Part shown: positions 9,952 to 63,188 of the stretch, one piece after another | How positions within the stretch are numbered: position 1 is the stretch's first letter | How the letters are laid out: every line of letters begins with the position of its first letter | NCBI GenBank assembly: GCA_051313645.2 | Contig: JBNRSN020000017.1 | Span: 16,554,001-16,618,000 of the forward strand | Source: Centroscyllium fabricii | Lineage: Eukaryota | Reading direction: 5' to 3' | DNA length: 64,000 nt | Position numbers and translations under genes: made by a program | The notes under the pieces: generated by a model | The model's input: only the letters and a program-made list of their open reading frames with translations | Told to the model about the DNA's origin: nothing | Databases searched by the model: none

Positions 9952-9974
9952 GTTAAATTTGCCGATGCTTCTCC

Positions 9975-10807: not shown

Positions 10808-10818
10808 CCTCGTCGCCA
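10808..10818 (-). promoter_or_regulatory. Primer-binding site, tRNA-Ser(GCU)-type
   Basis: TGGCGACGAGG lies just inside the 5' LTR and is complementary to the ...CCTCGTCGCCA 3' end of vertebrate tRNA-Ser(GCU) (recalled sequence). Confidence 0.8.
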
Positions 10819-24862: not shown

Positions 24863-24900
24863 TTTATTTATTTGCTCTCTAGAAACCTCCCCCCCACTAA

Positions 24901-25856
24901 TTAGTTTAAAGCCCTCTCTGCAGCCCTAGTTATATGATTCGCCAGGACACTGGTCCCAGCCCGGTTTAGGTGAAGCCCGTCCCACCGGAACAGTTCTCTC
25001 CTGTCCCAGTACTGGTGCCAGTGTCCCAAGAAGCAAAACCCATTTCTCCCACACCAGTCTTTGAGCCACGCATTTAACTCCCTAATTTTATTTACCCTAG
25101 CCAAATTCGCTCGTGGCTCAGGTAATAACCCAGAGATTATTACCCTCGAGGTTCTGTTTTTTAGTTTGACCCCTAGCTGCTCATAGTCCTGTAACAGAAC
25201 CTTCTTCCTTGTCTTATCTATGTCGTTGGTACCAACATGTACCAGGACAACTGGATCCTCCCCCTCCCACTGCAAGTTTCTCTCCAGCCCAGAAGAGATT
25301 CATTAACCCTGGCACCGGGCAGGCAACACAGCCTTTGGGACTCCCGCTCTCGGTTGCAGAGAACCCTATCTATCCCCCTGATGATACTGTCCCCTACCAC
25401 TACAACATTTCTATTAACTCCCCCCTCTTGAATGGCCCCCCGTTCCACGGTGCTGTGGCCAGGTTGCTCATCCTCCCCACAGTCCCCGCTCCCGCCCTCA
25501 CAGGGAGTAAGAGCCTCAAACCTGTTGGACAAGAGCAAGACATGCGGCTCTTCCAACACTACCTCCTGGATTCCCGTACCTGCCTCACTCATAGTCACAC
25601 CATCCTGTCCCTGACCACGATCTACATTTAAGTTAATTAATCTATTTGGTGTGGCTATCTCCTGCAACACAAAGTCCAGGTAATTCTCCCCCTCCCTGAT
25701 GTGTCGCAGTGTCTGAAGCTCGGACTGCAGCTCATCAACACGAAGCCGGAGTTCCTCGAGCAAAAAACCCTTGCTGCAAATGTAGTCACCGCGAGCATCA
25801 ATGGTGTCCATGAACTCCCACATCTCGCAGCAGTAACACATCACCTGCTCACCCAT
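24901..25856 (-). pseudogene. CR1 ORF1 (zinc finger/leucine zipper plus SGNH esterase), frameshifted
   Basis: CYCCEMW…YICSK, a heptad LEELRLRVDELQSELQTL, VVGDSIIRGID, CCLPGARV, VHVGTND and DGLHLN, spread over two overlapping frames. Confidence 0.9.
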
Positions 25857-31515: not shown

Positions 31516-31981
31516 TCTCTGCATCTTCTTTGTATTAAAATCAAGACACATCGTACCATCTCCGACTTAATCTTTCCCAGGACCTGAAATCTCTACAATT
31601 CCCTTCTTCCTAAAAATCTACAAGCTTATAAAACCCAAGCTTAGTGTCACCCACCCACCACCGATAAATCCCCAGGGCCTGATAATCTACATCCTAGGGT
31701 ACTTAAGGAAGTGGCCCTAGAAATAGTGGCCGGAATTTTGCCCTAATGGCGGGGAACTGGCGGGGATTGGTCGGGGCGGGTTTTTGTCCCACCTGATTAA
31801 GTGCCTGCGTTTCCCACGAGATTTTAGTCTAAGTACCCAATTAATTCCCCGCCTGTGGGAAGCCTTCTCAATCACCGATTTCCAGTCAGAAAGTCGCACA
31901 ATATGACGTCAGGATTCGGGTTTCCTTTAATAAACACAGCTCGCCTCCCGCACTGCTCAGCGTTCTACAACCTTCAGCAGG

Positions 31982-35421: not shown

Positions 35422-36690
35422 CTAAGAAAATCTTGCAAGGATGAGCTCCATCCTTGCTTGCCAGCCAGCAACGGTCTCGCGTAATGGTGGCGCTGGCTGG
35501 GGTCGAGCGGCAGCAACACCGTCCTCCTCTTCCTCCTCCTCCTCCTCCTCTTCCTCCTCCTCCTCCTCCTCCTCCTCTTCCTCTTCCTCCTCCTCCTCAT
35601 CTGAGGACGGTATGCGAGGAGGCAGGTCTTGGTCAGGAGGTTGCAAGCCACGGCGCTGTGCCATGTTGTGAAGTTGACAGCAAACCACTACCATTCTGGA
35701 GACCCTGGCTGGGGTGTATTGCAGGGCTCCACCTGATCTGTCCAAGCATCTGAAACGCATCTTGAGCAAGCCGATGGTGTGCTCTATAATGCTTCTGGTG
35801 GAGATGTGTGTGGAGTTGTAGTTCTCCTCAGCCTCATTGGCTGGCCTCCTGACCGGCGTCATGAGCCAAGTCCTGAGGGGATAGCCCTTGTCTCCAAGTA
35901 GCCACCCCGGAAGCTGGTCCGGCGGTGTGAAGAGCGTAGGCAGGGTTGATTGGCGCAGGACAAAGGAGTCATGGCAGCTGCCAGGGTACCTGGCACACAC
36001 ATGCAAAATCTCCTTGTTGTGGTCACACACCAGTTGAACATTGAGTGAATGGAAGCCCTTGCGGTTGAGAAAAGCTACTGGGTTGTCGTTGGGTGCCCTA
36101 AGGGCCACATGTGTGCAGTCAATGATGCCCTGTACCCTTGGGAAGCCTGCTAGATGAGCCATTTCAATCGCTCGGGCCCTCACACTTGCGCGATCCGTGG
36201 TAAAATGGATGAAATTGTGGGCACGGGCAAAGAGGGCATCGGTTACCTGGGTGATCCAGGAGTGTGCGGCCGACTGGGAGATTCCGCTGATGTCGGCTGC
36301 TGATCCCTGGAATGAGCCCGAGGCAAAGAAGCTGAGTGCGGTGGTGACTTTGAGGGCCACTGGTAAGGCATGTCTACCTGGTGTCCTGGGCTCCAGCTCT
36401 TGCTGCAGCATGGCGCAGATGTCTGTGACTGCCTGTCGGGAAAGTCGGAGTCGCCTTTGGCACCGCCGCTCACTCATGTTGAGGTAGGTGGCTCGGACTC
36501 TGTAGACCCTGTTTGGGGGGTATCTTCTGCGGCACCGGCCTTGGATGCGCCGATGCCTTCTGGCCCATGCTGCCCCCGGAGGGTCCGCAGGAGCGTCAGG
36601 CTCCTGGTGTGGCTGTTGCTGCTGTAGCTGTATCTGCTCCTGGTAGAGATCATGCAATCCCAAGAAGGGAAGGAAGAAAATGGCTCCCAT
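35422..36690 (-). CDS. Harbinger (HARBI1-like) DDE transposase
   Basis: Uninterrupted ORF (open from 36930; likely start MGAIFF at 36690) with HTH region FFASGSFQ…GISQS and catalytic motifs [50 protein letters not shown] and CCQLHN, followed by a poly-Glu tail. Confidence 0.93.
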
Positions 36691-37220
36691 GGCTGTGCTG
36701 GCAGCCTTGGCTGAGGAAGCACTGAGTGAGGGGGGGAAGTGAGAGGGCTTTCCCAGGTCACACTGCAGAAGTGTTTGAGGATGCAACCTTCTACAGGTGT
36801 GCTGAAGCCTGTTGCAAATATCCCCAGGACTGAGCCAACAATGTGTTTGCGGAAGCGAATGATGGCTGATTAAATGTGAGCCTTCATTGAGTGACCGGAC
36901 ACAGATACTCAGCAGTCCAAATGAGTTCACACAAGGGTTTCACCTGACGGGGTTTATCTTGGCAGGTTTTGTGCGTGAAACACCTGAAAATTGCTAAGGG
37001 CCCTTAAAATGGGATTACAGATGCCAATTAAGGGCCCTTAACGACCTTAACAAGCATCCCCGCCGGGCGCCGGCAGGAAAGATTCGGGGCAGGAAAAAAG
37101 GCTGCCCAAAAATTCAAATCCGGCGGGGAATGGGCGGGCTTGGGCGGGAACCAAAATGTTCTAATTTTCACCTCCCGCCCGCCCAAAACCCCGCCTCACG
37201 GGGACATGAAAATTCCCCCC

Positions 37221-38725
37221 AGTGGATGCATTTCAACATTCGCTGTAATCTGGAGCTGTACCTATAGATTGGAGGGTAGCTAATGTTAACCCACTATTCA
37301 AAAAGGATGGTAGAGAGAAAGCGGGGAATTACAGACCGGTAAGCCTGACATCGGTAGTGGGGAAAATGCTAGAGTCCATTATAAAAGATGTAATAACAGA
37401 GCACTTGGAAAACAGTGACAAGATCGGACAAAGTCAACATAGATTTACTAAAGGTAAATCATGCTTGACTAATCTACTGGAGTTTATTGAGGATGTAACT
37501 GGGAAAATAGATAAGGGAGAACCACTAGATGTGATATATTTGGACTTTCAAAAGGCTTTCGATATGGTCCCGCATAAGAGATTAGCATGTAAAGTTAAGG
37601 CACATGGAATTGGGGGCAAGGTATTGACTTGGATGGAGAATTGGTTGGCGGACAGAAAGCAGAGAGTAGGAATTAACGGGTCTTTTTCTGAGTGGCAGGC
37701 AGTGACTAGTGGGGAACCACAGGGATCGGTCCTTGGACCCCAGCTATTCACAATATACATTAATGATCTAGATAGGGGAACTAGATGGAATATCTCCAAG
37801 TTTGCAGATGACACAAAGCTGGGTGGGTGGGTGTGCTGCGAGGAGGATACCAAGAAACTCCAGGATGATTTGGACAGGTTGGGTGATCGGGCAGAAGCGT
37901 GCAGATGCAATATAACGTGGATAAATGTGAGGTTATCCACTTTGGTGTCAAAAACAGAAAGGCAGACTATTATCTGAATGGAAATAGATTGGGAGGCGGG
38001 GAAGTGCAACGAGACCTGGGCATTCTTGTGCACCAGTCGTTGAAGGTAAGCATGCAGGTGCAGCAGGCGGTGAAGAAGGCAAATGGTATGTTGGCCTTCA
38101 TAGCGAAAGGGTTTGAGTACAGGAACAAGGATGTCCTGCTGCAGTTGGACAGGGCCTTGGTGAGACCACACCTTGAGTATTGTGTGCAGTTTTGGTCGCC
38201 TTATCTGAGGAAGGATGTTCTTGCCATGGAAGGAGTTCAGCGAAGGTTCACAAGGCTGATTCCTGGGATGGTAGGAATAATGTATTAGGAGAGATTGGGT
38301 CGATTAGGCTTATACCCGCTGGAGTTTAGAAGAATGAGAGGGGATCTCATCGAAACTTATAAAATTCTGACAGGTCTGGACAAACTAGATGCAGGAAGAA
38401 TGTTCCCGATGGTCAGAGAGTCCAGAACCAGGGGGCGCAGTCTAAGGATAAGGGGTAGGCCATTCAGGACAGAGATGAGGAAGAATTTCTTCACCCAGAC
38501 AGTGGTGAACCTGTGGAATTCTCTACCACAGAATGTAGTTGAGGCCAAGTCATTAAATATATTCAAGAAGGTGTTAGATATAGTTCTAAGAGCTAAAGGT
38601 ATCAAGGGATATGGGGAGAAGGCAGGTACGGGGTACTGAATTTGGATGATCAGCCATGATCTCATTGAATGGTGGAGCAGGCTCGAGGGGTCGAATGACC
38701 TACTCCTGCTCCTATCATCTATGTA
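37221..38725 (+). mobile_element. CR1 LINE 3' half (its 5' piece lies at ~31640-31727), decayed RT
   Basis: RT motifs in ORFs 37357-37977, 37899-38288 and 38295-38639. The tail gatcagccatgatctcattgaatgg… is the type carried by the V-SINEs. Confidence 0.92.
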
Positions 38726-39887: not shown

Positions 39888-40925
39888 ATGATGTGGAGGT
39901 GCCGGTGTTGGACTGGGGTGGACAAATGCAAGAAGTCACACAACACCAGGTTATAGTCCAACAGTTTTATTTGAAATCACAAGCTTTCGGAGCGCTGCTC
40001 CTTCCTCAGGTGAAAGAGAAGTTCATTTAAAGACAGCATATATACAAGGGAGAGAGCAATCTAATCTCTCCAACATCACACTTCAGCAGAGAGACATACA
40101 GAGCAGACAAAGGTGTTTTTGCATATTTTAACATATTAATCAGGCACCAGTCTGAGATCAATGAGGTATAGTCACAAAGGGTCAAATGTTGCAGTCTTGT
40201 GTCTGTGTGAAAACACACAGAATGATTTAAAAAAAAAAGGATTTTCCTTACTGGAAATCGCTGCAGCGAACAAGACAAAGACGACTCGAGTCTGGATGAC
40301 TCTACGTCAGGCGGGGTCACATGTAGCACGACACGAAGCCAATATCACGGTTGAGGCCGTCCTCATGGGTGCGGAATTTGGCTATCAGCTTCTGCTCGAT
40401 GATTTTGCGTTGTGTGTCTCGAAGGCCGCCTTGGAGAATGCTTACCCGAAGATCGGAGGCTGAATATCCTTGACTGCTGAAGTGTTCCCCGACTGGGAGG
40501 GAACACTCCTGCCTGGCAATTGTTGTGCGCTGTCCGTTTTATCCGTTGTCGTAGTGTCTGCATGGTCTCGCCGATGTACCATGCCCCGGGGCATCCTTTC
40601 CTGCAACGTATGTTCTTCATGTTCTTCGCAGCCTTCAACATGTCATTGATGACGACGAACACCTCGCTAAGGCCATCCCCACGCCTCCACTACTCACCTT
40701 CAAACAGCCGCCTAACCTCAAACAGACTATCGTTCGCAGCAAATTACCCAGCCTTCAGGAGAACAGCAACCACCACACCACACAACCCTGCCACAGCAAC
40801 CTCTGCAAGACGTGCCAAATCATCAGCACAGATACCATCATCACACGTGAGGACACCACACACCAGGTACATGGTACATACTCATGTGGCTCGATCAACG
40901 TTGTCTACCTATTCTCGTTATCTAC
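39888..40925. mobile_element. Penelope-like element with an inverted 5' part (minus 39888-~40612, plus ~40615-40925)
   Basis: The minus part encodes IRCRKGCPGAWYIGETMQTLRQR (GIY-YIG) and holds a hammerhead at 39977-40013. The plus part encodes the upstream linker (FKQPPNLKQTIVRSKL…C..CKTC…HGTYSC.S.NVVYL). Confidence 0.87.
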
Positions 40926-43152
40926 GTTGGTGTGTATTCAAGGAATTATTTTATAACTTTCAAGATAAATATATTCCACTGAGGAAAAAGGGGTGTAAAA
41001 GTAAAAACAACTATCCGTGGCTAAGTAAAGTAATAAAGGAGAGTATCCGACTAAAAACAAGGTTATATAAGGTAGCTAAATCTAGTGGGAAGATAGAAGA
41101 TAGGGAAGCTTTTAAATGTCAGCAAAAGATAACAAAAAGATTGATTAGGAAAGGGAAGATAGATTATGAAAGTAAGTTAGCAAAAAATATAAAAACAGAT
41201 AGCAAGAGTTTCTATAGTTACATAAAAAGAAAAAGGGTGGCTAAAGTAAATGTTGGTCCTTTAGAGGATGAGACCGGGAAATTAATGGTAGGAGACATGG
41301 AGATGGCAAAAGCGCTGAACAAATATTTTGTGTCCGTCTTTACAGTAGAGGACACTCAAAATATTCCATCATTGGATAAACAGGTGGCTCTCGGGGGGGA
41401 GGAGCTAATTACGTTTAAAGTCACTAAGGAGGTGGTACTTGGGAAAATTATGGGACTTAAGGAGGATAAATCCCCTGGACCTGATGGCTTACATCCTAGG
41501 GTCTTGAAGGAAGTGGCGGTAGGGATTGTGGATGCGTTGGTAATAATTTTTCAAAACTCACTGGACTCGGCAAAGGTTCCGGCAGATTGGAAAACTGCTA
41601 ACGTAACGCCCTTATTTAAAAAGGGTAATAGACAGAAGGCTGGAAATTATAGACCAGTTAGCTTAACATCTGTGGTTGGAAAAATGTTAGAATCTATTAT
41701 TAAGGAAACAGTAACAGGGCATTTGGATAAACACCATTTAATAGGACAAAGTCAGCATGGTTTTACAAAAGGGAAGTCATGTTTGACAAATTTGCTAGAG
41801 TTCTTTGAGGACATAACATATAGGGTGGATAAAGGGGAATCAGTGGATGTGGTGTATTTGGACTTCCAAAAGGCATTTGACAAGGTGCCCCACAGAAGAT
41901 TATTACTCAAGATAAAAAATCACGGGGTTGGGGGTAATATTCTGGCATGGGTGGAGGATTGGCTTTCTAACAGAAAACAGAGAGTTGGGATAAATGGTTC
42001 ATTCTCAGACTGGCAGTCAGTCACTAGTGGTGTTCCGCAAGGGTCGGTGCTGGGACCCCAACTCTTTACAATCTATATTAACGATTTGGAAGAAGGGACC
42101 AAGTGCAGCGTATCAAAGTTTGCAGATGACACAAAAATGGGAGGGAGGGTGATGAATGAGGAGGACATTAAAACCCTGCAAAAGGACATAGATAAGCTAA
42201 GTGAGTGGGCAGAGATTTGGCAGATGGAGTATAATACTGGAAAATGTGAAGTTATGCACTTTGGCAGGAAAAATAATAGAGCAAGTTATTATCTAAATGG
42301 AAAGGAACTGGAAAGTACTTCTGTGCAAAGGGATCTGGGGGTCCTGGTGCAGGGGACACAGAAAGTTAATATGCAGGTGCAGCAGGTGGTAAGGAAGGCC
42401 AACGGAGTGTTGGCTTTTATTGCTAAGGGGATTGAGTATAGAAGCAGGGAGGTCTTGTTGCAGTTGTACAGGGTATTGGTGAGACCACACCTGGAATACT
42501 GCGTGCAGTTCTGGTGTCCCTATTTAAGAAAGGACATACTTGCTCTCGAGGCAGTGCAGAGAAGATTCACTAGGTTAGTTCCGGGGATGAGGGGACTAAC
42601 ATATGACGAGAGGCTGAGTGGATTGGGCCTCTACTCATTGGAGTTCAGAAGAATGAGGGGCGATCTTATTGAGGTATATAAGATTGTGAGAGGGCTTGAT
42701 CGGGTGGATGCGGTGAGGATGTTCCCAATGGTGGGTGAGACTAGGACTAGGGGGCATAATCTTAAAATAAAGGGCTCCCATTTTAAAACTGAGATGAGGG
42801 GGAACTTCTTTACTCAGAGGGTGGTGCGGCTGTGGAATTTGCTACCACAGAGAGCTGTAGAAGCTACTACGTTGAATAAATTTAAAACTGAGATAGACAG
42901 TTTCCTGGAATTAAAGGGAATTAGGGGTTATGGTGAACGGGCTGGTAAGTGGACGTGAGGCTAGGTTGAGATCGGCCATGTCTGGTTTTTCATCTCTCCC
43001 AGGTGATTACATTGGTTGGGGCGGGGTAGAGAGTAAAAATAAAATTGAGGCTAGGATCAGATCAGCCATGATCTTAATGAATGGCGGAGCAGGCTCGAAG
43101 GGCCGATTGGCCTACTCCTGCTCCTACTTCTTATGTTCTTATGTTCTTATGT
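40926..43152 (+). mobile_element. 5'-truncated young CR1 with an uninterrupted RT frame up to the natural stop at 42958
   Basis: From WCVFKELF onward the protein is nearly identical to ORF2 of the 21640-26545 copy. It ends in (ttcttatg)3. Confidence 0.95.
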
Positions 43153-43825: not shown

Positions 43826-44215
43826 CTGTACTCAGTGGGCAGAACCCTCGCCTCTGAGTCAGTAGGTCGTGGGTTCAAGTCCCACTCCAGAAACTTGAGC
43901 ACAAAAAGCTAGGCTGACACTCCCAGTGCCAGTGCTGAGGGAGTGCTGCACTGTCGGTGGTGCCGTCTTTCGGATGAGACGTTAAACCGAGGCCCCGTCT
44001 GCTCTCTCAGGTGGGCATAAAAGATCCCATGACAGTATTCGAAGAAGAGCAGGGGAGTTCTCCCTGATGTCCTGGCCATTTATCACATTGCTGTTTGTGG
44101 GATCTTGCTTTGTGCAAGTTAGCTGCCGCTTTCCCTGCATTACGGCAGTGATCACACTTCAAATTGGTGCTTTGGGACGTCGCAAAAGCCCCTTTATAAA
44201 TGCAGGTCTTTCTTT
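43826..44215 (+). mobile_element. Deu-domain SINE with a tRNA-like head
   Basis: B box gggttcaagtccc and a Deu core as in 31118-31515, with internal deletions. Confidence 0.8.
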
Positions 44216-44509
44216 GCCTGCAGTATGTTGACAACTCCGAGTAATCGTTACTGGTTTCCATACTCATCCCCTTCTCTCCTTCATAAAGGAGCTGTCTCCA
44301 GGGAGTAGAGAGATGAGTTCCCCCTCCCAGGGAGGTGCAGCCCATCTCCGACAGGTATCAGTCCTAATGTGGGTGCCAGTTAAACCACTCTAATTTTTTT
44401 TGCATGGGGCAAAAGGATGAATCTGAAACACCGACAGGAAAAAACAGAAGATAATGTTCAGCAGGGGGACGAACTATCATTAGATGCCAACTTAAGCCTG
44501 CATAGCACC

Positions 44510-44757
44510 TGATGCGTTATCAATAACTCCAAAAGACTAGAAGTTACACAAGTAACAAATAGGCTTTTATTCACTAAAGAATGAGAACATGCCTCTGCTG
44601 ATCGACTGGTCCAGGACTGAAGGGGGGTTGGGGAACAGTCACCTTTATACCTGGGCCTGAGGGAGGAGCCACAGGCGGAGTCAGCAGGGGCATGTCCAGC
44701 CAGGTTACATACAGCAGGTAAGAGTGAACTAGAATACAACAACAGTGGTTTACCACA
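44510..44757 (-). mobile_element. Solo LTR related to the 46821-51597 Gypsy family
   Basis: TG…CA ends (tgatgcg…ggtttaccaca). TSD GCACC at 44505-44509 and 44758-44762. Shares ggctttta.t.actaaagaa and the taccaca end with the Gypsy LTR. Confidence 0.85.
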
Positions 44758-45289
44758 GCACCGTTGTTATAATGGGTCATACAGAAGTACTTCGAGCCAT
44801 GCATCACTTTAATAATTATACGCGACAGTGTATAGGAATCTGATCTCTTTTTTAGTAATGGGGTAACAGCATGACAAAGCCTAAATGATTACAAATATGG
44901 TTTCAGTTATAAACACGCTTGTTGACATAAGCCTCTATTAGTTGCTGAAGGGCTTTGCCTGTACCTCTATTGGATTATAATGTAATGAGCCCGTTACAGT
45001 GTTTGCCAGCAGTAACACAGCATTGGCAGCAGACTGCACAGTGGCAGACTCACTACTGCGTGCCTTAAGTTACAATTTATATCCCCTTCCCTTTATAAAT
45101 CTAGCAGCAGGACCTGTTGAATTCTTTAACGAGCGCCGTAAATTTCATACATGTTGCCATTTACTTGGTCTTTGCTTTGTCGGGGTTTAGTGGCAGCTGC
45201 TCCAGTTGTCTCAGTTAGCTCATGCTCTTAGTCCAAGGGCCGCAGTGATACAGCTTCAACCCTTCCCGTTGTAAAATACTGTCCACCTC

Positions 45290-45700
45290 AACAACAACCA
45301 CTCGCATTTATACAGCGCCTTTAACGTAGTAAAACGTCCCAAGGCGCTTCACAGGAGCGTAATCAGACAACATCAGACACCGAGCCACATAAGGAGATAT
45401 TCGAGCAGAGGTAGGTTTTAAGGAGCATCTTAAAGGAGGAAAGAGCGATGGAAAGGTGGAGAGGTTTAGGCAGAGAATTCCAGAGCTTAGGGCCTGGACA
45501 GCTGAAGGCACGGCCGCCAATGGTGGAATGATTAAAATCAGGGATGCGCAAGAGGCCAGAATTGAAGGAGCGGAGCTACCTTGGAGGGTTGTAGGGCTGG
45601 AGGAGGGTACAGAGCTAGGAAAGGGCTGACGCCATGCAGGAATTTGAAAACAATGACGAGAATTTTAAAATCGAGGTGTAGCTCAGCTGGGAGTCAAAGT
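45290..45700 (-). mobile_element. L2-type LINE 3' end
   Basis: The minus frame encodes TIGGRAFS..GPKLWNSLP…FK.LLKTYL and is followed by the L2 tail. Confidence 0.8.
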
Positions 45701-45798
45701 AGACAAGAGGATAAGTCGGTTGGCATGCGATCCATTCACATCTGAGACCTGGGTTGGCACATTGGCCGCACTGATGAGCTGATAGTCTGAAGTACATA

Positions 45799-45915
45799 GG
45801 GGGAAAAATTCAGTTGGTTTGCGCCTCCAGCTAGCGCCTTAAGAGGGTGCTAATGGAGCGCAAAGCAACTAGCGCCTGTGCACGGCGATGTTTGCGCCAC
45901 TCATGAAATTAACTA
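45799..45915. mobile_element. One end of the Harbinger-type MITE family seen at 29283-30206
   Basis: gggggaaaaattcagttggtttgcgcctc…tgctaatggagcgcaaa resembles the reverse complement of 30130-30206. Confidence 0.6.
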
Positions 45916-45919
45916 GACA

Positions 45920-46472
45920 TTTCGAGACACACGACAATGCAAAATCGTCGAGCAGAAACTGATAGCCAAGTTCTGAACTCATGAGGACGGCCTCAACCGG
46001 GATCTTGGCTTCATGTCACGCTACATGTAACCCCACCTGACGTACAGTCATCCAGACTCGAGTCGTCGTTGGCTTGTTCTCTCTACACAGATGCGGCTGG
46101 ACTTGCTGTGATTTCCAGCAAAATATTTTTATTTCATTTTATTTTTTACTGCTTGTTTGTTTTTTGTTTTTCATACAGCATGTGCAACATTTGACCTCTT
46201 GTGACCCCACCTCATTGTTCTTTGATGGAATGTTTTGCTGACTGACCTGTTTGGATACCATTTACACCTATGATTGCGGTGATTATCTCTCTGCCGAGGT
46301 GTGATAAAGGGCAGTTAGAAAAATTACCTGTAATCATCTAGCATTATTTTCTGACTATATATGCTGTACCTATGTGCATCTCTTCACTTCACCTGAGGAA
46401 GGAGCAGCGCTCCAAAAGCTTGTGATTTCAAATAAAACTGTTGGACTATAACCTGGTGTTGTGTGACTTCTC
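45920..46472 (+). mobile_element. Penelope 3' fragment with a mutated hammerhead (46389-46425, GAAA to AAAA)
   Basis: catgaggacggcctcaaccgggatcttggcttcatgtcacgctaca…aaataaaactgttggactataacctggtg. Confidence 0.8.
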
Positions 46473-46820
46473 ACACTATTGGAAGAGTAGTGAATGGAGG
46501 TGAAGAGTGTGACATTGTCAACGAACGACACCACGCCTGACCTTATGATGGCAGGAAGGTCATTGATGACGCAGCTGAAGATAGTTGGGCCTAGGACACT
46601 TCCTTGAGGGACTCCTGTTCTAATTTAAATACACATTACTTAGCTCGGATTGGCCTGTCAGTTTCAGAGAGATAGGATGGTTGACTCAGGATGAAGTGTT
46701 TGAAAATCATTAAAAATGACCGTTGCCTAAAGTGTTTCAAAATAAAATATCTTATCAGGGCATTTCAGAGACTCTTGACACAGCGGTCCTGGTAGTGGCT
46801 GACTAATTAATGCCAACAGG

Positions 46821-49800
46821 TGACGTATCGTCAAGGTCTTCAATTAAAAGAGTCGACGCGTAGTTACCGAAACTAAAGGCTTTTAATTACTAAAGAACGG
46901 AGCTACTCTCCAGACGAACTACTGTACAGGAATGGATGGAGCCTCGGTCAGACCACACCTATATCGGGGCCTCACCTGGGAGAGGAGTCGGGGGTGTGGC
47001 TGACCTGGCTCCCAACAGAGTCACAGTAAACAGGGCTGTGCCTAACATCTGCACAGCCCATCATTAGCCATGGTGATACAGTGGTATAACTGATATAGAA
47101 TGGTTACCACATTCACCCCTTCTTAAAAACTTTGAGTCCGGGGGGGGTGAATGGATCGAACAGTTCATAATTAGTCTGTCCGGCGGTCGTGTCTGCCTGG
47201 AGGACCGCCGGCGCTCCGGTGTTGGCGGCGGTGCCTCCTGTGTCAAATGGTCCGCATCTGCCGGCGCTGTGACTTCAGGTGGTGGTGGGCTCGGCTGGTC
47301 CCCGCCGTCCGGTTCGTAGTCGGGGAAACTCGGGGGCCATCTTGCGTCTGGTGGTTGGTCGACCTGCTGGCCAGCAGGGGGCGCTGTGGTGGTGTTTCCG
47401 GCAGGGGCCAGGTCCCTGATGGACACGGTGTCCTCACGCCCGTCCGGGAACTGCACGAAGGCGTAGTGCGGGTTCGCGTGTAGGAGCTGTACCTTGTCCA
47501 CCAGGGGGTCCGTCTTGTGGCTCCGGACATGCCTTTTAAGCAAAACCGGCCCCGGAGTCGTCAGCCATGGAGGGAGAGCTGTCCCCGAAGTCGACCGCCT
47601 GTTAAAAGAGAAAATCAGATCGTGCGGGGTGGCGTTAGTAGCAGTACATAACAGAGCGCGAATAGAGTGCAGCGCATCTGGGAGGACTGCCTGCCAATGG
47701 GACACTGGAAGGCCTCTGGACTTAAGAGCCAGGGTGACCGCCTTCCAGATGATCCCATTCTCCCTTTCTACCTGGCCGTTCCCCCGGGGGTTATAACTGG
47801 TCATTCTGCTCGTGGCAACCCCTCTCTGGAGCAGAAACTGGCGCAGTTCATCGCTCATGAACGATGACCCCCGGTCGCTATGGATGTAGCTGGGGAGACC
47901 GAAAATGGCGAACAGCGCGGTGAACTGTTTGATCACCGTTGCGCTCGTCATGTCTGGGCAGGGGAAGGCGAAGGGGAAGCGGGAGAACTCATCCACTACC
48001 GTGAGGAAGTATGAGTTGCGGTCGGTGGAGGGGAGGGGGCCTTTGAAGTCCACGCTGAGACGTTCAAAGGGGCGGGTGGCCTTGATGAGGTGCGTCGTGT
48101 CTGGCCGGAAAAAGTGGGGTTTGCACTCGGCGCAGACAGGGCACTCTCGGGTCATAGCCTTGATCTCCGTGATGGAGTAGGGGAGGCTACGGGATTTGAC
48201 GAAATGGGCGAGTCTGGTGACACCCGGGTGGCAAAGGCGGTCGTGGAGGTCCCTCAGCCGGTCTAGCTGGGCACTGGCGCACGTTCCCCTGGACAGAGCG
48301 TCAGGGGGTTCGTTGAGTTTGCCTGGTCGGTAAAGAATGTCGTACTCGTAAGTCGAGAGTTCGATCCGCCACCGCAGGATCTTATCATTCTTGATTTTAC
48401 CCCGTTGTTTATTATTAAACATAAACGCTACCGACCGTTGGTCGGTGAGCAGGGTAAAACGCTTACCGGCCAGGTAATGACGCCAGTAGGGCACGGCCTC
48501 CACGATGGCCTGGGCCTCCTTTTCCACTGCTGAGTGGCGAGTTTCGGGTCCCTGTAGGGTGCGGGAGAAAAACGCAACGGACCTGCCTGCCTGATTCAGG
48601 GTGGCAGCAAGGGCGAAGTCCGAAGCGTCACTCTCCACCTGGAAAGGGATGGATTCATCAACAGCGAGCATGGTCGCCTTGATAATATCTTCCTTTATCT
48701 TTGCGAATGCCGTTTGGGCTTCCACAGAGAGGGGGAAGACAGCAGTCTTGAGGAGTGGTCTAGCCTTATCTGCGAACTGTGGGACCCATTGTGCATAATA
48801 GGAGAAAAATCCTAGACATCTCCTCAAGGCTTTGGGGTTGTGAGGTAGGGGCAGTTCTTGCAAGGGTCGCATACGCTGTGGGTCGGGGCTGAGGAGCCCG
48901 TTCTCCACCACGTATCCGAGGATGGCGAGCCGGGCTGTATTAAAGACACATTTGTCTTTGTTATACGTGAGGTCCAGCTTAGCCGCCGTGGCGAGGAATT
49001 TGGCCAGATTGGCATCGTGGTCCTGCTGGTCGTGGCCGCAGATGGTCACGTTGTCCAGGTAAGGGAAGGTGGCCTGCAAGTCGTTTTGGTCAACCATACG
49101 GTCCATCTCCCGTTGGAACACTGACACTCCGTTGGTCACACCAAAGGGGACCCGGAGGAAGTGGTAGAGCCGACCGTTCGCCTCGAAGGCGGTGTAGGGG
49201 CGGTCAGCTTTCCGAATCGGGAGCTGATGATACGCCGATTTAAGGTCGATCGTAGAGAACACCTTGTACTGGGCGATCTGATTGACGATTTCTGAGATGC
49301 GGGGAATGGGGTAGGCGTCGAGCCCGGTGTAGCGGTTGATAGTCTGGCTGTAATCGATAACCAGCCGCTGTTTTTCGCCAGACTTCACCACTACAACTTG
49401 GGCACGCCAGGGGCTGGTGCTGGCTTCAATTATCCCCTCCTTCAGCATCCGCCCGACCTCCGACCTGATAAACGTGTGATCCCCCTCACTGTACCGCCGA
49501 CTCTTAGTGGCGATGGGTTTGCACTTCGGGTCGAGGTTGGCGAACAGCGAGGGGGGGTCGATTTTCAGGGTGGAGAGGCCGCAGGCCGGGCTCCGCTTTG
49601 GGAGGAGATTGTCCCGGCTACTGACGGTGAGGGGGGGTAACGTCCCGCCGAACTCCATTGTCACACTCCTGAAGTGGCACTGGAAATCCAAACCTAGTAA
49701 GGCTGGGGCACACAACTGTTGGAGGGTATACAATTTAAAATTACGGTACACGCGTCCCTTGACGGTGAGCGTGACGGAGCAGTAGCCGGTGACGTCCGCG

Positions 49801-51597
49801 GTGTGGGACTGTGAAGCTAGGGAGACTTGGTAGTTGGTGGGCAGGACCTGCAGTCCGCAGCGCCGCACTGTATCAGGGTGAATGAAACTCTCAGTGCTGC
49901 CTGTGTCGAAAAGGCAGTCGACAGTATGATCATTAATGCTAATCGGTATTATTGAGTTAGACAGGGTATGGGGCCTGCCCTGGCTAACTCTGATTCTAGC
50001 TGCCGCAGCCCCTGCTGATCGGGGCTGTGCACAAGATGGCGTCGCCCCTGGCTTGCACATGGATGGGCCCTGGATACAAGATGGCGTCGCCCCTGGCCCG
50101 CAGCTGGTGGGGCCCCGTATACAAGATGGCGTCGCCCCTGGATCGCACATGGAGGGGCTCTGGTTGCAAAATGGCGTTTCTGAGGGGACGCACGCGGTTG
50201 GGCCCTGTGAACGCGCTGGCGGCGCCCGTGATTCGCACGCAGCGAACCGCGGTGATCGGGTTGGCGGTGCCCGTGATTCGCACGCAGCGGGCCGCGGTGG
50301 TCGGGTTGGCGGTGCCCGTGATTCGCACGCAGCCGGCCGCGTTGGGGGGTCGCGCTTGGCCGGCCTTTGCTGCATCAGGGTGGGGGATGGGGGCGCTTGT
50401 TGTTTACCCCCGTACCGTCGCTGGATCGCGCTGCTATTGCAGCTTACCTGGTGTCTGTCGGTGCTCTCACAGGCTGCACTGTTGTACCTTGAGTTGGGCG
50501 CTGCTGGAGCTGATCTGCAGGCTTTAGCGTAGTGTCCCTTCTTTGCACACTTCTCGCAGGTCGCTGTCCTGGCTGGGCATTTCGCTCTAGGGTGCAGTCC
50601 CTGGCTGCAGAAGTAACAGCGCTTGCTTTTAACGTCTTTAATGTCTTTAGTGGCCGTCGCGGCCATCGTGGGGGCCTCGGCCCGTAGCGCCCAGGCCTGG
50701 GCCTGTTGTGGCGCGGCCCATATGTTGTAGGCTTGCGGGTTAGTGCCGCTGTACGCCTGAAACTTGCTACGGACCCCCTCTACCGATTTGGCTAACGTAG
50801 TCGCCTCCTCGAGGGTTAAATTGTCTCTCTCTAGTAGCCGCTGGCGGGCTTCCACACACCTCAGTCCTGTGACATAAGCGTCCCGAACGAGGAGTTCTTC
50901 CTCCTCTGCAACAGTTGTGCCTTTGCAGCCACAGGCCCGTACCAGGGCCAGGAGCGCTTGCTCAAACTCCTCATTTGACTCACCCGGTAGCTGAGGTCTG
51001 GTCGCCAGCACATGTCGGGCGTAGACCGAATGGACCGGGCGCACGTAACATTTCTTCAAAATTAGTATAGTCCTTTCGTAGGTTGTGGCGTTCCTGACGA
51101 GGGTGAATACCCTGCTGGAGATCCTTGATCGCAGGACATGTAGCATGTCCTTGTCTCATGTAGCCTCGGCGGCTTCCATGTAGGCCTCCAGAAGGCCGAA
51201 CCAGTGTTCGAAGGTAGCGGGAGCAGCAGGGTCCTGGGGACTGATGTCCAGCTTCTCAGGTTTAACTGTGCTGCTATCCATTTTAAAATAATTTAGTAAT
51301 TAAAATTGACGTATCGTCAAGGTCTTCAATTAAAAGAGTCGACGCGTAGTTACCGAAACTAAAGGCTTTTAATTACTAAAGAACGGAGCTACTCTCCAGA
51401 CGAACTACTGTACAGGAATGGATGGAGCCTCGGTCAGACCACACCTATATCGGGGCCTCACCTGGGGGAGGAGTCGGGGGTGTGGCTGACCTGGCTCCCA
51501 ACAGAGTCACAGTAAACAGGGCTGTGCCTAACATCTGCACAGCCCATCATTAGCCATGGTGATACAGTGGTATAACTGATATAGAACGGTTACCACA
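46821..51597 (-). mobile_element. Young Gypsy/Ty3 LTR retrotransposon (4.8 kb)
   Basis: 291-bp TG…CA LTRs at 46821-47111 and 51307-51597 (2 differences seen). TSD ACAGG at 46816-46820 and 51598-51602. PPT aagaaggggtgaa at 47112-47124. Confidence 0.98.
47064..51281 (-). CDS. Single gag-pol polyprotein; one in-frame TGA at codon 42 (51156-51158), then 1360 aa open from the ATG at 51146
   Basis: Start MDSSTVKPEKLDISP at 51281. Two CCHC knuckles, protease LFDTGS, RT LDAYPIP and YLDN, RNase H SDASD and TDQRS, integrase H-H-C-C plus VDFKGP, SDRG and NGQVEREN. Confidence 0.93.
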
Positions 51598-51734
51598 ACA
51601 GGTCCAGAGCCTGGGTTACTCCTGTCAACCCTTTGTCCGATAAGCGCGCCTGTGAAACGCCTTGGGATGTTTTACTATGTTAAAGGCGCTATATAAATAC
51701 AAGTTGCTGTTCGTGTTACTTGCTGATTAAAAAT

Positions 51735-52160
51735 AAGGTCTTGCATTTATATCATGACTTATAGCTAATGAAGTACTTTTTGAAGTGTAGTCACTGTTGT
51801 AATGTAGGAAACACAGCAGCCAATTTGCGCACAGCAAGATTGCACAAACAGCAATATGACAATGACCAGATAATTTATTTTTTTAGTGATGTCAATTGAG
51901 GGATGAATGCTGGCCAGGACACCAGGGTGAACTCCCCCTGCTCTTCCTTAAAATAATGCTGTGGGATCTTTTACGTCCACCTGAGAGAGCAGGTTTAACA
52001 TCCCATCTGAAAGACGGCACCTCTGACAGTGCAGCACTCCCTGAGTACCGCACTGGAGTGTCAGCCTGGATTTTTGTGCTCGAGTCTCTGGAGTGGGACT
52101 TGCGCCCACAACCATTGATCGATTCAGATGGCAGGAGTGCTACCCACTGAGCCACGGCTG
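51735..52160 (-). mobile_element. Deu-domain SINE
   Basis: Reverse complement of the 31118-31515 consensus, including the tRNA-like head. Confidence 0.82.
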
Positions 52161-52496
52161 ACACCAGTAAAATGGCCACACCAGTACGTCGAAGCCTGAA
52201 GTGGGACGTCGCAGCCTGTCGGTCTCGGGTGTCGAACGGTGGTCCCCGACAAAACCTGAATGACGGGACGCTGAAAGGAGACAAACAGCACAGGGGAAGA
52301 ATCGTAGAATCATAGAATCATAGAATTACTACAGTGCAGATAGGGGCCATTTCGGCCCATCGAGCCTGCACCGACACGTATCCCACCCTATCCCCGTAAC
52401 CCCACACATTCAATCACCCTAACACTAAGGGTCAATTTATCATGGCCAATCAACCTAACCCGCACGTCAGGCGAAGTGTCGAGATTCATTTAAACA

Positions 52497-52630
52497 ACTT
52501 CACCTGACGAAGGGGCAGACGCTCCGAAAGCTTGTGATTTAAAATAAAACTGTTGGACTATAACCTGGTGTTTGTGTGACTTCTTGCATTTGTCCACCCC
52601 AGTCCAACACCGGCACCTCCACATCATGGC
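52497..52630 (+). mobile_element. Penelope terminal fragment with an intact minimal hammerhead (52500-52537)
   Basis: tcac-CTGACGA-aggggcagacgctcc-GAAA-gctt-gtga. It is preceded by a V-SINE-like fragment at 52310-52467 (-). Confidence 0.8.
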
Positions 52631-53679
52631 TCCTGTTCTTTCCTGAGCTACCAACAGGAGAGGGGATAGGCGGGGCGGGGGGGCGATAGGGGGTCATTTT
52701 CTGAGCACACACTGGCAGTGCGGAACTTTGCCCATCGCCAGCTTCACGGGATTATACAAAAGGCTGAAACAAGCCAGAATTCAATTGTGGTTTCTGACTT
52801 TTGCTCTGTTTCCCGTGCCTGATCATAACACGGAGCCAAGGGGTCTGGCTTTTTATTTCGTTTGTTGTTGAAGGTATTGAGCAAAATTGTGTAATCTGGA
52901 TCCCATTATATTATTTTAAATGATCTTTCCAAGAAGTTGAAGGACAAAGCACTCTATTCTGGCCTGGGAATCCAATTAGTAACACAACAAGTCTTTGATG
53001 GTTGGAGGTGAAAACACCGCAGATGATTCATGCAATTTAGCCTCAATAGAGGGCGGTTGTAATGTGTCCTTTTCACATCCCAGCAAATAGCTCAAATAAC
53101 AGTGCCTTTGCGAATGGGTACATCCAATCATTATGGAACCTTGTTTTGATATAGGGGGATGATGAGCTCCACAAGCTGTGTACGTTCAGAATAGACTCCA
53201 ACTCAGTGACAGCAGCACCTTTGCATTCTGGTTTATGTTGATTGGAGGTTCCTGGAATCAGAGCTAATTTCACGAGTCTGCGCTGTTTTGCCCGCAGTTT
53301 GGCTGCCCGCCATTGGGTTGAAAATGGTGGGCAGCCCCGCACTCGGAGTGGGTGAGGGTCCCTCCTAGCAGCATGGACCCTGATTTCGTTTTTTTTGCCG
53401 TATTATCAAGCAGCTGCCGATCAGCCCAGCAAGCGCGGGATTGCCTTTGCGATTTGGGTTTTCACGCCAGGTTATTTCCTCAGGCCCAGCGCCACCAGCC
53501 ACTCCCATAAACCGACCTTGTGACCCCTATGATCAGGAGTGCGCCTTTACCTACCAATATGAAGGTAACTATAATGAGGCCCAGGGTCAAGCTGGGAAGC
53601 CTTGTCGCTGTACACCAGCTTCCTGGAATATATCACATGCCACAATGTGAACCAGGCGACAGAAGAATATACACTCAAT

Positions 53680-60195: not shown

Positions 60196-60808
60196 TCAAG
60201 TGGGATGTGGAGGAAGAGATTGCTAAAGCTGAGTGCTGATGAGTGCAATGGGGATCAGATTGAGGGTGATGGAAACTTCATACTTACTTTTCCAGTGCGA
60301 TGAAGGTCCTGGAATCTTTTCCTGCACTGAATCCAGGTGCGCCTTGTGAGGCCCAAGGAGTTGACTTCCCCAGACACCTGTAGCCAAGCAGCTTTGGTCT
60401 CAGTGGGTGGCCTCTTCCTCCCTGAAGAAGGGAACAGGACCTCCCTGTGGGCCCTAACCCCATCCAGTAATGCCAGCAGCGATGCCTCATCAAGCTTGGG
60501 TGCAGCTGTTGCCCTCCCGTTGGCCATAGCTCCTGCAGGCTCCTGTGACATCATAAGGGGAAAGCTTGGAAGCCCACAGAGGAAGCAAGGCTTGCTGTGG
60601 ACCTTAAAAGCAGCAGCAATGATGACGTCATATTCTGCGACTTTCTGACTGGAAATACTCAATTGCCGAGGGTTCCCACACGCTGGAAATCAATTGGCCA
60701 ATTGAGTTAAAATTGCATCAATCTCACAGACCCATTTAGATTCGTGTGGGAAGCTCGATATTTGGGGAACCCGACAATTCCCCGCATCTGAGGGAAAGTT
60801 CGACCCCC
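60196..60808 (-). mobile_element. Truncated Harbinger end with Myb/SANT exon 1
   Basis: Translation PKLDEASLLALLDGV.AHREVLFPSSGRKRPP..TKAAW.QV…QCRKRFQDLHRTGK|gtaagt is homologous to 31982-32245, with the same splice donor. Confidence 0.88.
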
Positions 60809-61099
60809 AAGTCTTTCCTCTGAGTGCACAGTAACACCAGCCTGGGTTGAGCTGGCATTGCTACAGTGCTGTTGTCCTGTTTCTCATCGTTGGAGGCCCT
60901 AAACTTTGGGCAGTGCCATGTTGTCGAACCGAGGTGGTGAGGAAGGACTGAAGTTTGCGAATGCCCATTAAGCCGACAGCCTCCAGCTCAAACCCATCAG
61001 TCCGCGCAGGATTTTAACCCAAGTCCACTGAGCCACCCAGAACTCCTTTCTCTGGCCCTGATCACTGTGGGGTTGAGGGAGGTTGTGGGGTTAATTCAT

Positions 61100-61970
61100 C
61101 CAAACTACCTCAACCCCACTAACTACCTCAACTCCAATAACTAACTCAGCTCCACTAACTACCTCAACCCCACTAACTACCTCAACCCCACTAACTGCCT
61201 CAACCCCACTAACTGCCTCAACCCCACTAACTACCTCAACCCCACTAACTACCCCAACCCCACTAACTACCTCAACCCCACTAACTACCTCAACTCCAAT
61301 AACTAACTCAGCTCCACTAACTACCTCAACCCCACTAACTACCTCAACCCCACTAACTGCCTCAACCCCACTAACTGCCTCAACCCCACTAACTACCCCA
61401 ACCCCACTAACTGCCTCAACCCCACTAACTACCTCAACCCCACTAACTACCTCAACTCCAATAACTAACTCAGCTCCACTAACTACCTCAACCCCACTAA
61501 CTACCTCAACCCCACTAACTGCCTCAACCCCACTAACTGCCTCAACCCCACTAACTACCTCAACCCCACTAACTACCCCAACCCCACTAACTGCCTCAAC
61601 CCCACTAACTACCTCAACCCCACTAACTACCTCAACCCCACTAACTATTTGAACCCCACTAACTACCTGAACCCCACTAACTATCTGAACCCCACTAACT
61701 ACCTGAACCCCACTAACTACCTGGACTCTACTAACTACCTGAACCCCACTAACTATCTGAACCCCACTATCTATCTGAACCCCACTAACTATTTGAACCC
61801 AACGAAATACCTGAACCTCACTAAATACCTGAACCCCACTAACTACCTGAACCCCACTAACTATCTGAACCCTGCTATCTATCTGAACCCTGCTAACTAT
61901 CTGAATACCACTAACTACCTCAACTGCACTAACTACCTCAACCCCACTAATTATCTCAACCTGAACTCCA
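61100..61970. repeat. Minisatellite, 18-bp unit (aaccccactaactacctc), about 48 copies
   Basis: Tandem array. The variant block actccaataactaactcagctcc recurs at 61131, 61293 and 61455. Confidence 0.95.
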
Positions 61971-63188
61971 CGGTCCTGCAGAGTAAACAGGAGCAAACCA
62001 AACTTCACCCACAGAGAACAAAACTGAGGAATAGTCACTCTCTTCGATATCTCATGTTCCATATATGAGCAGGGTGGGCAATTTGGACTCCCTCAATCTA
62101 GCGTTAACGGGGAAGTAACAGCCTTACCACCACCATTAACACAGCCGATGCGGCTGCAGCCATTTTGAAAGCTGCCTACCGCTGGGTGTCCAAAGTGCCC
62201 ACCTGTTTCAGGCAATAGGCCCCCTTTCAATACGGCAAATCGGGTTTCTATGAGATAAATTGGTCCCCAGTTGCCATTTCAGATCGGAATTGGTCGGAAC
62301 CTGCGCAGTGCCGGGCTCAACCATTTCCACAGGCGGTGGAGGGGAAGAGGCCGAAGGTAACGTCTCGACTTATTTTTATGGGCCTTGGAGGGGCAGGAGT
62401 GGGGCCCATAAAAATAATCTGGGCCACTGCTGCCCAGGGACCCCCACCCTCAGTGACTGCGCCACCCTGCCCCCCAACACAATTTACCCTCCTGGCCCTA
62501 GTTCTTCTGCTGAGTCTGGTGAGCTGCGGCGAGATGCCTGTTTGGTGGCTTGCAGACTGCCTGGCAATGGTAAATCAGGCCTGAACGGTGGCGGGGGGGT
62601 GGGGGGGGGGGGAACATTTGGCCTCCCGAATGGTTGGCCAACCAAAGGTCAGAATAGACCCTGAGCTGTTTGAGAACCAAGGGTCAGAATAGACCCTGAG
62701 CTGTTTGAGAAGCACACTTTAGTGTTATTAAATAATTTTGACCGGCTTTGCGCCCGCTTTGAAGCCAACGTAACATTTGCTCGCTGAGACACCAGCTTAT
62801 CGACCGCAGGCCTTGTTAGCATCAGGAGCCCAAATGCCTGTGCAAGACTCATGGAATAAAGCAGTGCGATCGTCTGAGGGGGAATTACTGCAGATGGATG
62901 CATCGAGTCCGTTCCGAGGCCCTGTTTAAGCTTGGTTCAACATATTGCGCGCAAAAAAGCAACCTTCTGCCATCTGAGCTTAGAATGAAACACTCGCAGA
63001 ATTGGAAGCGTGGTTGCCTGGAGGCAGAGAGGGGGAGGGTGACGGGAGTCATTCTCTCCTACGGCTGGACTGCGATTTGTATAAATTCGAAAAAAGCATC
63101 GTTATAAAAATGGATTCATCATATTAGAGAGTAAGAAAAGACAAGAGGTATCTGGCTTCTTCTTCACAGGTAACTATTAGCACATAAT

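What the first reader, a model, noticed from the sequence alone, without database searches (positions are those of the whole stretch)
51292..51380. Gypsy with no tRNA PBS: a 14-bp inverted repeat pairs the PBS position with the 5'-LTR poly(A) signal
Seen: the sense sequence right after the 5' LTR is (A)TTTTAATTACTAAA (51305-51292), with no TGG. It is perfectly complementary to sense TTTAGTAATTAAAA (51380-51367) inside the LTR, 61 nt away. That site contains ATTAAA, and the matching position in the solo LTR at 44510-44757 reads AATAAA, which supports a poly(A)-signal role. The hairpin can form only at the 5' LTR. Inference: it could mask premature polyadenylation and/or provide a tRNA-independent primer. 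For example, the 3' R copy ending just past the signal could anneal to the PBS position. This would differ from Tf1 5'-end priming.
Basis: partly seen in the sequence, partly recalled or inferred. Interest (0 to 1): 0.75.

Follow-up and report, generated by a model that had tools for sequence, protein, structure and literature searches.

The report
Self-priming Gypsy retrotransposon lineage
This jumping gene has no tRNA landing site: the spot next to its left terminal repeat pairs perfectly with a stretch of that same repeat, and its relatives keep the pairing while the letters change, so it likely starts copying itself with a piece of its own RNA, much as the yeast element Tf1 does.

Summary
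A young Gypsy element (51597-46821, minus strand, LTRs 289/291 identical) has no TGG after its 5' LTR. A 14-nt stretch starting one base after the LTR pairs perfectly with an LTR segment containing ATTAAA. It is not chance. Of 11 elements of this lineage with a readable junction, 8 show a perfect 10-17 bp pairing in the same register with different letters, 1 shows a nearly perfect one, and 2 decayed copies fail; none has TGG. All 12 control Gypsy elements have TGG and no such pairing. Among close copies, the only listed variants in the two arms are partner bases (A-U to G-C; phase not shown). Best reading: tRNA-free self-priming, with the 5' LTR copy likely cut at the duplex edge as in Tf1. 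Poly(A) masking is at most a second role: one family pairs 17 bp with no canonical signal. Unlike Tf1/sushi, it has no chromodomain and no three-duplex 'pretzel', and the arm lies about 40 nt inside the predicted transcript start. No RNA ends were mapped. The scan has noted similar self-pairing Gypsy elements in other animal genomes. Verdict: new variant of a known mechanism.

The parts
51307..51597 (-). 5' LTR, 291 bp, TG...CA
   Evidence: direct repeat with 46821-47111, 2 differences
51445..51450 (-). TATA-like box (ATATAG; TATAAA at the same spacing in the solo LTR)
   Evidence: 84 nt before the arm's 3' end, 85 nt in the solo LTR; function predicted
51415..51421 (-). initiator-like CCATTCC; predicted transcription start at 51419
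   Evidence: 31 nt after the TATA-like box; same TATA-Inr-arm spacing (53 vs 54 nt) in the solo LTR; not mapped
51367..51380 (-). LTR arm, the candidate self-primer; contains ATTAAA at 51373-51368 and ends in a run of A before GCC
51306..51320 (-). small U5-end hairpin (6 bp) next to the primer site, including the LTR-terminal CA and the one-base spacer A at 51306
   Evidence: minimum-energy fold; not conserved as such in relatives
51292..51305 (-). primer-binding-site arm, perfect complement of the LTR arm, no TGG
47064..51281 (-). single gag-pol frame (two CCHC knuckles, PR-RT-RH-IN, no chromodomain). Broken by an in-frame stop at codon 42; the frame runs on into the 3' LTR
49050..49061 (-). 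RT active-site motif YLDN instead of YxDD
   Evidence: YxDN in 92 of 120 homologues
47112..47124 (-). polypurine tract
46821..47111 (-). 3' LTR; its copy of the arm lies at 46881-46894
46816..46820 (-). 5-bp target-site duplication CCTGT (other copy 51598-51602)
44510..44757 (-). solo LTR of a related family with a 5-bp target duplication; AATAAAA-GCC at the arm position

Best explanation
This Gypsy element carries, at the primer-binding position, a perfect complement of a segment of its own LTR, and it likely primes reverse transcription with that segment instead of a tRNA: the RNA is predicted to fold back so that the LTR segment pairs with the primer site, and would be cut at the end of the duplex, probably by the element's RNase H as in Tf1. 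Shown: no TGG; the 14-bp complement; its start one base after the LTR end; its conservation with changing letters across the lineage. Inferred: transcription starts near 51419, so the primer would be a capped piece of about 53 nt whose last 14 nt are paired; the cut falls after the A-run (AAA|GC); minus-strand synthesis then copies the spacer A, U5 and the rest of R; the R sequence between the cut and the poly(A) site carries the first strand transfer. Because the paired segment usually covers the poly(A) hexamer, the same fold may also hide the 5' signal during transcription, as a second role.
For: Perfect Watson-Crick run starting at +1 after the LTR in 8 of 11 lineage elements (10-17 nt; dinucleotide shuffles reached it in 0-1 of 300). 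A ninth, L002, has 16 WC pairs, 1 GU and 1 mismatch over 18 positions. TGG is absent in 11 of 11. In the 4 paired elements whose LTR end is fixed by a second LTR (window, L002, L009, L045) the pairing starts at +1 in 4 of 4. Over 8 families, 105 of 112 cells are WC pairs, against 26-49 of 112 when slid by 1-3 nt and a mean of 7.7 of 14 for swapped partners; positions 4-14 each show two or more WC pair types. Controls: 12 of 12 other Gypsy elements have TGG within 0-3 nt and a best self-match of 3-6 nt; so does the second Gypsy in this window. Among close copies the only listed variants inside the arms are at 51297 and 51375, which are partners (A-U to G-C), at 29/43%, 35/35% and 36/35% of depth in three runs. 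The duplex always ends flush at an A-run, and the next base is unpaired in 8 of 8, as expected of a primer 3' end. Precedent: Tf1 RNase H cuts at the edge of an 11-bp self-duplex (PMC7175516, passage).
Against: No RNA end, cut site or cDNA was observed. The two oldest elements fail the test (L047, L049). In run X13 the LTR variant is at 36 of 43 depth while the partner variant is at 0 of 16.7, no phase was shown in any run, and 26 variant rows were hidden. The leader is no more stable than shuffles (z = -0.59), and competing folds win in L009 (pair probability 0.03) and L045 (0.36). The flanking helices that Tf1 requires are not conserved: no leader-U5 helix beats shuffles in 9 of 9, and a U5-end helix does so in only 1 of 9. 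The TATA-Inr spacing recurs in the window LTR, the solo LTR and L001, but not in the other 7 relatives. For 5 single-LTR contigs (L001, L005, L007, L008, L010) I set the LTR end by eye, so their +1 register is partly by construction.
Confidence: 0.62

Rival explanations
1. Self-priming by the 3' R copy, or by a short R-only polyadenylated RNA (from the 5', 3' or solo LTRs), trimmed from its 3' end back to the duplex edge so that no endonucleolytic cut is needed.
For: The 3' LTR arm is equally complementary (I24). The arm always ends in 3-4 A paired with the T-run that opens the primer site, just where a poly(A) hexamer ends. The Tf1 pretzel helices are absent. The predicted start lies about 40 nt before the arm, so R would hold upstream sequence usable for strand transfer.
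Against: It needs removal of the poly(A) tail plus 10-30 nt (textbook distance), and no precedent turned up in the papers read. With the genomic 3' end as primer, the first strand transfer would have to displace the primer itself (inference). The local 5' partner is only 61 nt away and forms first.
Confidence: 0.2
2. The pairing exists mainly to hide the 5' LTR poly(A) signal, like the HIV-1 polyA hairpin, and priming uses something else.
For: 8 of 9 paired arms contain AATAAA (3), ATTAAA (3), AGTAAA or ACTAAA, 23-61 nt before the LTR end. The partner lies outside the LTR, so the local fold is specific to the 5' end. Occlusion of 5' signals is established in retroviruses (PMC3694450 passages; PMC2645353 listing).
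Against: L010 keeps a 17-bp duplex across GGTAAA, and its only AATAAA is 200 nt before the LTR end. L009 and L045 have a second AATAAA outside the duplex. Masking does not need a fixed start one base after the LTR end. No other primer site is present (TGG absent in 11 of 11). Controls with an LTR AATAAA manage without such pairing.
Confidence: 0.1
3. The site is read by a tRNA half or another host small RNA, and the LTR match is incidental.
For: Half-tRNA primers without TGG exist in copia lineages (PMC6317226 passages). No host tRNA set was available for a direct search.
Against: The site differs among families and follows each family's own LTR; a conserved host RNA would not. Rfam found no relevant match in 44000-53000, a weak test for 14 nt.
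Confidence: 0.04
4. Chance match between AT-rich sequences.
For: Both arms are 12 of 14 AT, and the leader's folding z-score is -0.59.
Against: Shuffle and AT-rich controls; G-C-containing duplexes in relatives (L008, L010); absence in 12 of 12 controls.
Confidence: 0.01

Closest known systems
Tf1/Tf2 (S. pombe), Tj1, Tosmo and the Tf1/sushi group of Ty3/Gypsy chromoviruses
   Same: No tRNA site; the primer site just after the 5' LTR is complementary to an LTR segment of similar length (11 nt in Tf1; PMC7175516, PMC4600332, PMC10085805, passages).
   Different: No chromodomain here or in the Pfam lists of 120 homologues. No conserved three-duplex pretzel. The arm overlaps the poly(A) hexamer and is predicted to lie about 40 nt inside the transcript rather than at its 5' end. 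The RT motif is mostly YxDN.
TAR (Houba/Osr-1) Ty1/copia and Tcn1 lineages of plants
   Same: [quoted passage not shown]
   Different: TAR is copia and Tcn1 is a chromovirus. This is a Gypsy-order, chromodomain-less animal lineage.
HIV-1 polyA hairpin and other 5' poly(A)-site occlusion in retroviruses
   Same: The poly(A) hexamer is placed in a helix.
   Different: In HIV-1 the hairpin is present at both ends (PMC2645353, start of abstract) and U1 snRNP contributes (PMC3694450, passages). Here the partner lies outside the LTR at the primer site, and the masking role is untested.
Mag-lineage Gypsy elements
   Same: 5-bp target duplication and short LTRs (PMC3286476 table passage); paired CCHC knuckles (recalled, no call).
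   Different: Mag elements use tRNA-Leu/Ser/Arg sites (PMC3286476). This lineage has none and separates from all TGG-bearing elements sampled.
Saci2-like elements of tapeworms
   Same: Single gag-pol frame of about 1,400 aa; primer sites reported as variable among families (PMC12471100, passages and Table S1).
   Different: 4-bp target duplications, and the primer sites are assigned to tRNAs by the author. Relationship not tested.

Membership tests
Ty3/Gypsy LTR retrotransposon | PR-RT-RH-IN domain order between TG...CA LTRs, with polypurine tract and target duplication | tested here: met
   nearest solved relative is Ty3 Gag-Pol, E 1.9e-56
tRNA-primed LTR elements | TGG (complement of the tRNA CCA end) within a few nt of the 5' LTR | tested here: not met
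   0 of 11 lineage elements, 12 of 12 controls
Half-tRNA-primed elements | primer site complementary to an internal tRNA segment | tested here: inconclusive
   no host tRNA set; ARAGORN found 0 tRNAs in the window; family-specific covariation with the LTR argues against it
Tf1/sushi self-priming chromoviruses | primer site complementary to the element's own 5' LTR | tested here: met
Tf1/sushi self-priming chromoviruses | chromodomain at the integrase C-terminus | tested here: not met
   no Chromo hit in the element or in 4 homologues scanned; none in the precomputed Pfam lists of 120 homologues
Tf1/sushi self-priming chromoviruses | self-primer at the very 5' end of the mRNA | tested here: inconclusive
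   TATA-Inr pair predicts a start 39 nt before the arm; no RNA ends available
Tf1/sushi self-priming chromoviruses | three-duplex 'pretzel' around the primer site | tested here: not met
   flanking helices no better than shuffles: 9 of 9 on the leader side, 8 of 9 at the U5 end; a local 6-bp U5 hairpin in this element only
Tf1/sushi self-priming chromoviruses | RNase H cleavage at the duplex edge | not testable with these tools
   needs biochemistry
Tf1/sushi self-priming chromoviruses | RT-RH phylogeny inside the Tf1/sushi branch | not tested
   no reference Tf1/sushi sequences could be fetched; the tree holds none
Mag lineage | primer site for tRNA-Leu, -Ser or -Arg | tested here: not met
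   against PMC3286476
Mag lineage | 5-bp target-site duplication | tested here: met
   window, L002, L009, L049; L045 unclear
Mag lineage | RT-RH phylogeny with Mag/SURL/Jule references | not tested
   no named references available
Saci2 clade | 4-bp target-site duplication | tested here: not met
   5 bp here; 4 bp in PMC12471100
5' poly(A)-signal occlusion (HIV-1 type) | poly(A) hexamer inside the helix | tested here: met
   8 of 9 paired arms, not L010
5' poly(A)-signal occlusion (HIV-1 type) | pairing lowers use of the 5' poly(A) site | not testable with these tools
   needs 3'-end mapping or a reporter

The most novel reading that the evidence does not exclude
A widespread animal Gypsy lineage, unrelated to Tf1/sushi and carrying a YxDN reverse transcriptase, uses its own poly(A) signal as the primer. 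The polyadenylated R end (of the genomic RNA or of short LTR transcripts) anneals to the primer site and is trimmed back to the signal's A-run, giving a 3'-OH without any tRNA or endonucleolytic cut, while the same pairing in cis silences the 5' poly(A) site.
Probability: 0.2. Interest if true: 0.8.

Novelty: new variant of a known kind. Interest (0 to 1): 0.55.

Why it matters
Self-priming has been shown only for Tf1 and predicted for its chromovirus kin and for plant TAR copia elements. Here a chromodomain-less Gypsy lineage shows the signature with strong covariation. Its homologues are annotated in rays, a catshark, a sea anemone and a nematode, and occur in many public assemblies. That points to another origin of tRNA-free priming, or to a much wider ancestral distribution. 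Such elements would escape control by 3' tRNA fragments, and tRNA-based pipelines would mis-annotate them as 'PBS-less'. The overlap of primer and poly(A) signal makes a sharp, testable prediction: an RNA-DNA junction at AAA|GC. It also raises the question of how one RNA element serves both 3'-end formation and priming.

Tried and rejected
No whole genome is held for the window. Three scans of viral contigs found no relative, nor did the first genome-contig scan. No RNA holder was listed among sequencing runs, which says nothing on expression; the runs laid are contigs and cannot show RNA ends. Rfam and ARAGORN found nothing relevant. The Tf1-type pretzel was tested and not found. A conserved TATA-Inr spacing across all relatives was not found. 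I could not name the lineage: no reference elements could be fetched, and searches for YLDN/YXDN with retrotransposon terms gave nothing relevant. Saci2 was considered and not adopted (4-bp duplications); its Figure S6 on primer sites is in a slide file that could not be read. The primary Tf1 paper PMC1563812 was not held. The careful tree did not finish, so the quick tree is cited. Sequence and place look-ups in the scan's own notes returned nothing. Rows dropped before the lineage count: L003 and L016-L044 (duplicates, or not examined separately); L004, L006, L011, L015, L046 and L050-L059 (no 5' LTR-leader junction); L048 (LTR end deleted, though 9 nt still match by eye). Rows dropped from the controls: L066, L078, L067, L076 and the second L077 copy (same families as rows kept); L061, L062, L071, L073, L075, L079, L013, L014, L024, L034 and L037 (no usable LTR pair reported). 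For L012 the downstream repeat and its flank were used, and the LTR end of L064 is uncertain.

Full report
THE ELEMENT. The finding lies at the 5' end of a complete Ty3/Gypsy insertion on the minus strand. The 5' LTR is 51597-51307 and the 3' LTR 47111-46821; both are 291 bp, they differ at 2 positions, and a 5-bp duplication CCTGT flanks them. A polypurine tract precedes the 3' LTR. One gag-pol frame (51281-47064) encodes two CCHC knuckles, protease, RT, RNase H and integrase, with no chromodomain, and carries an in-frame stop at codon 42. The nearest solved relative is Ty3. The closest named homologues, at 73-78% identity over pol, are from rays and a catshark; many more at about 60% come from public assemblies, with named ones from a sea anemone and a nematode. 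The host is therefore probably a cartilaginous fish (inference).

THE OBSERVATION. It is as stated. After the LTR-terminal CA come one A and then 14 bases (51305-51292) that perfectly complement 51380-51367 in the LTR, 61 nt away. No dinucleotide shuffle of the LTR reached 14 (0 of 300). 20,000 mononucleotide shuffles reached at most 11, and even random 80%-AT sequence reached 14 in only 11 of 20,000 trials. The helix is in the minimum-energy and centroid folds of the leader, but the leader as a whole is no more stable than its shuffles (z = -0.59).

RELATIVES. Related loci came from metagenome contigs (4 loci), from what appears to be animal DNA inside bacterial genome bins (11 loci), and from 35 further regions of two such bins. 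Eleven elements of the lineage, including this one, had a readable LTR-leader junction; the rows dropped are listed under Tried and rejected. None has TGG. Eight show a perfect complement of 10-17 nt that starts one base after the LTR and points to an LTR segment 30-60 nt before the LTR end. L002 shows 18 positions with one mismatch and one G-U. L047 and L049, old copies with LTRs 74% and 92% identical, fail. Each site matches its own LTR: the best non-cognate run is 9 nt or less, except between L009 and L045, which are one family. Over eight families, 105 of 112 cells in the first 14 positions are Watson-Crick pairs, against 26-49 of 112 after sliding by 1-3 nt. Positions 1-3 are always A-T, and positions 4-14 each show two or more pair types. 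For five contigs with a single LTR I placed the LTR end by eye. In the four paired elements with two LTRs the end is independent, and the +1 register holds in all four. As a control, 12 of 12 Gypsy elements of other lineages from the same sources have TGG within 0-3 nt and self-matches of only 3-6 nt, as does a second Gypsy in this window. A quick RT-RH tree puts the self-pairing elements and their homologues on one side of a branch with SH-aLRT 100 and all 13 TGG rows on the other. The sampling was by similarity and the tree holds no named references, so it shows only that the trait follows the lineage.

CLOSE COPIES. Laying public contigs of four runs on the junction listed one variant in each arm: 51297 and 51375. 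These are partner positions, and together they turn an A-U pair into G-C. Their depth shares were 29% and 43% (X1), 35% and 35% (X10), and 36% and 35% (X18). The bases just outside the primer-site arm (51288-51291) vary freely. Against this, X13 has the LTR variant at 36 of 43 but the partner at 0 of 16.7. No listed contig showed phase, and 26 of 66 variant rows were not shown.

MECHANISM. A complement that always begins one base after the LTR and ends flush at an A-run has the geometry of a primer with its 3' end facing U5. A tRNA cannot supply it, because the sequence follows each family's LTR. [quoted passage not shown] I therefore favour a cut in the 5' copy at AAA|GC (inferred, 0.62). The details differ. 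A TATA-like box and an initiator lie 84 and 53 nt before the arm's 3' end here, and 85 and 54 nt in the divergent solo LTR. This predicts a start at 51419 and a primer of about 53 nt paired only at its end; L001 has a similar spacing, but the other seven relatives do not. The two extra helices that Tf1 requires (PMC10085805, passage) are not conserved. The alternative is that the 3' R copy or a short R transcript is trimmed back to the duplex. It fits the A-run and the missing pretzel, but needs removal of the tail and 10-30 further bases and complicates strand transfer (0.2). On poly(A) masking: 8 of 9 paired arms hold a signal-like hexamer, so the fold could hide the 5' signal, as structure does in HIV-1 (PMC2645353, start of abstract; PMC3694450, passages). 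But L010 pairs 17 bp across GGTAAA, and L009 and L045 leave a second AATAAA unpaired, so masking is not what the pairing is kept for. The covariation may come from selection or from copying of the primer into the next generation's primer site. Retroviruses copy the primer while Ty1 and Ty3 do not (PMC7472051, passage), so this is open.

COMPARISON AND NOVELTY. In the papers read, self-priming is tied to Tf1/sushi chromoviruses and predicted for Tcn1 and TAR copia (PMC6317226, PMC4600332, PMC10085805, PMC3601003, PMC6934838, PMC5341516, PMC5443660; passages only). Skipper lacks both TGG and an LTR complement (PMC5006619, passages). Mag elements use tRNA-Leu/Ser/Arg (PMC3286476, passages). The mollusc survey lists many new Gypsy clades and never uses the term 'primer binding' (PMC6238403). 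Six full-text searches on priming showed, in their listings and in the papers opened, no report of self-priming in a chromodomain-less animal Gypsy lineage. The library lacks Butler 2001, Goodwin and Poulter 2001 and Repbase Reports; I recall Repbase notes on 'self-primed' Gypsy families in frog and fish (from memory, lineage unknown), so a prior mention cannot be excluded. The element works like Tf1 but fails two Tf1/sushi membership features (chromodomain, pretzel), so I do not file it there. The scan's own notes report similar self-pairing Gypsy elements in other animal genomes; they are unchecked and are not counted as support.

VERDICT. A real, lineage-wide structural feature best explained as self-priming; a new variant of a known mechanism; interest 0.55. 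The primer's source (5' cut or trimmed 3' end) and the masking role remain to be shown.

Noticed in passing
window 49050-49061 (-) and homologues P0001-P0120: The RT active-site motif is YLDN. 92 of 120 homologues have YxDN and 27 have YxDD. From memory, the same Asp-to-Asn change in Ty1 blocks transposition but not polymerisation, so a natural YxDN lineage is unusual. No relevant paper found.
   Followed up: partly
window 4012-11032 (-): A second, tRNA-type Gypsy element: LTRs of about 213 bp, 5-bp duplication GTTTC, TGG at 10818-10816, AATAAA 67 nt before the LTR end, long leader with short tandem repeats. Used as an in-window control.
   Followed up: partly
window 47064-47111 (-): The pol frame has no stop before the polypurine tract and runs about 16 codons into the 3' LTR.
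   Followed up: no
window 50031-50344: 45-bp tandem repeats in the coding region between the CCHC knuckles and the protease.
   Followed up: no
window 22274-24925 (-), 40481-42958 (+), 37249-37977 (+), 12133-12597 (+): LINE-type RT copies; two are 96% identical in inverted orientation over 1.67 kb.
   Followed up: no
window 35422-36939 (-), 31934-32719 (+), 60255-60689 (-): DDE_Tnp_4 transposase and Myb/SANT frames, as in PIF/Harbinger transposons (family label recalled).
   Followed up: no
window about 16500-18900 and about 61000-62000; 15158-15558: A 23-bp satellite of about 90 units, an 18-bp tandem array, and a near-perfect palindrome with 198-nt arms and a 5-nt gap.
   Followed up: no
G002, G003 (L006, L009, L045-L079): Two genome bins titled as bacteria give over 150 Gypsy pol matches each, with intact LTR elements and satellites; they appear heavily contaminated with animal host DNA.
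   Followed up: partly
PMC12471100 (Saci2-like elements), not in window: The paper reports primer sites that vary among families and assigns them to different tRNAs. It is worth checking whether they are self-complementary to the LTR instead; the figure could not be read.
   Followed up: no
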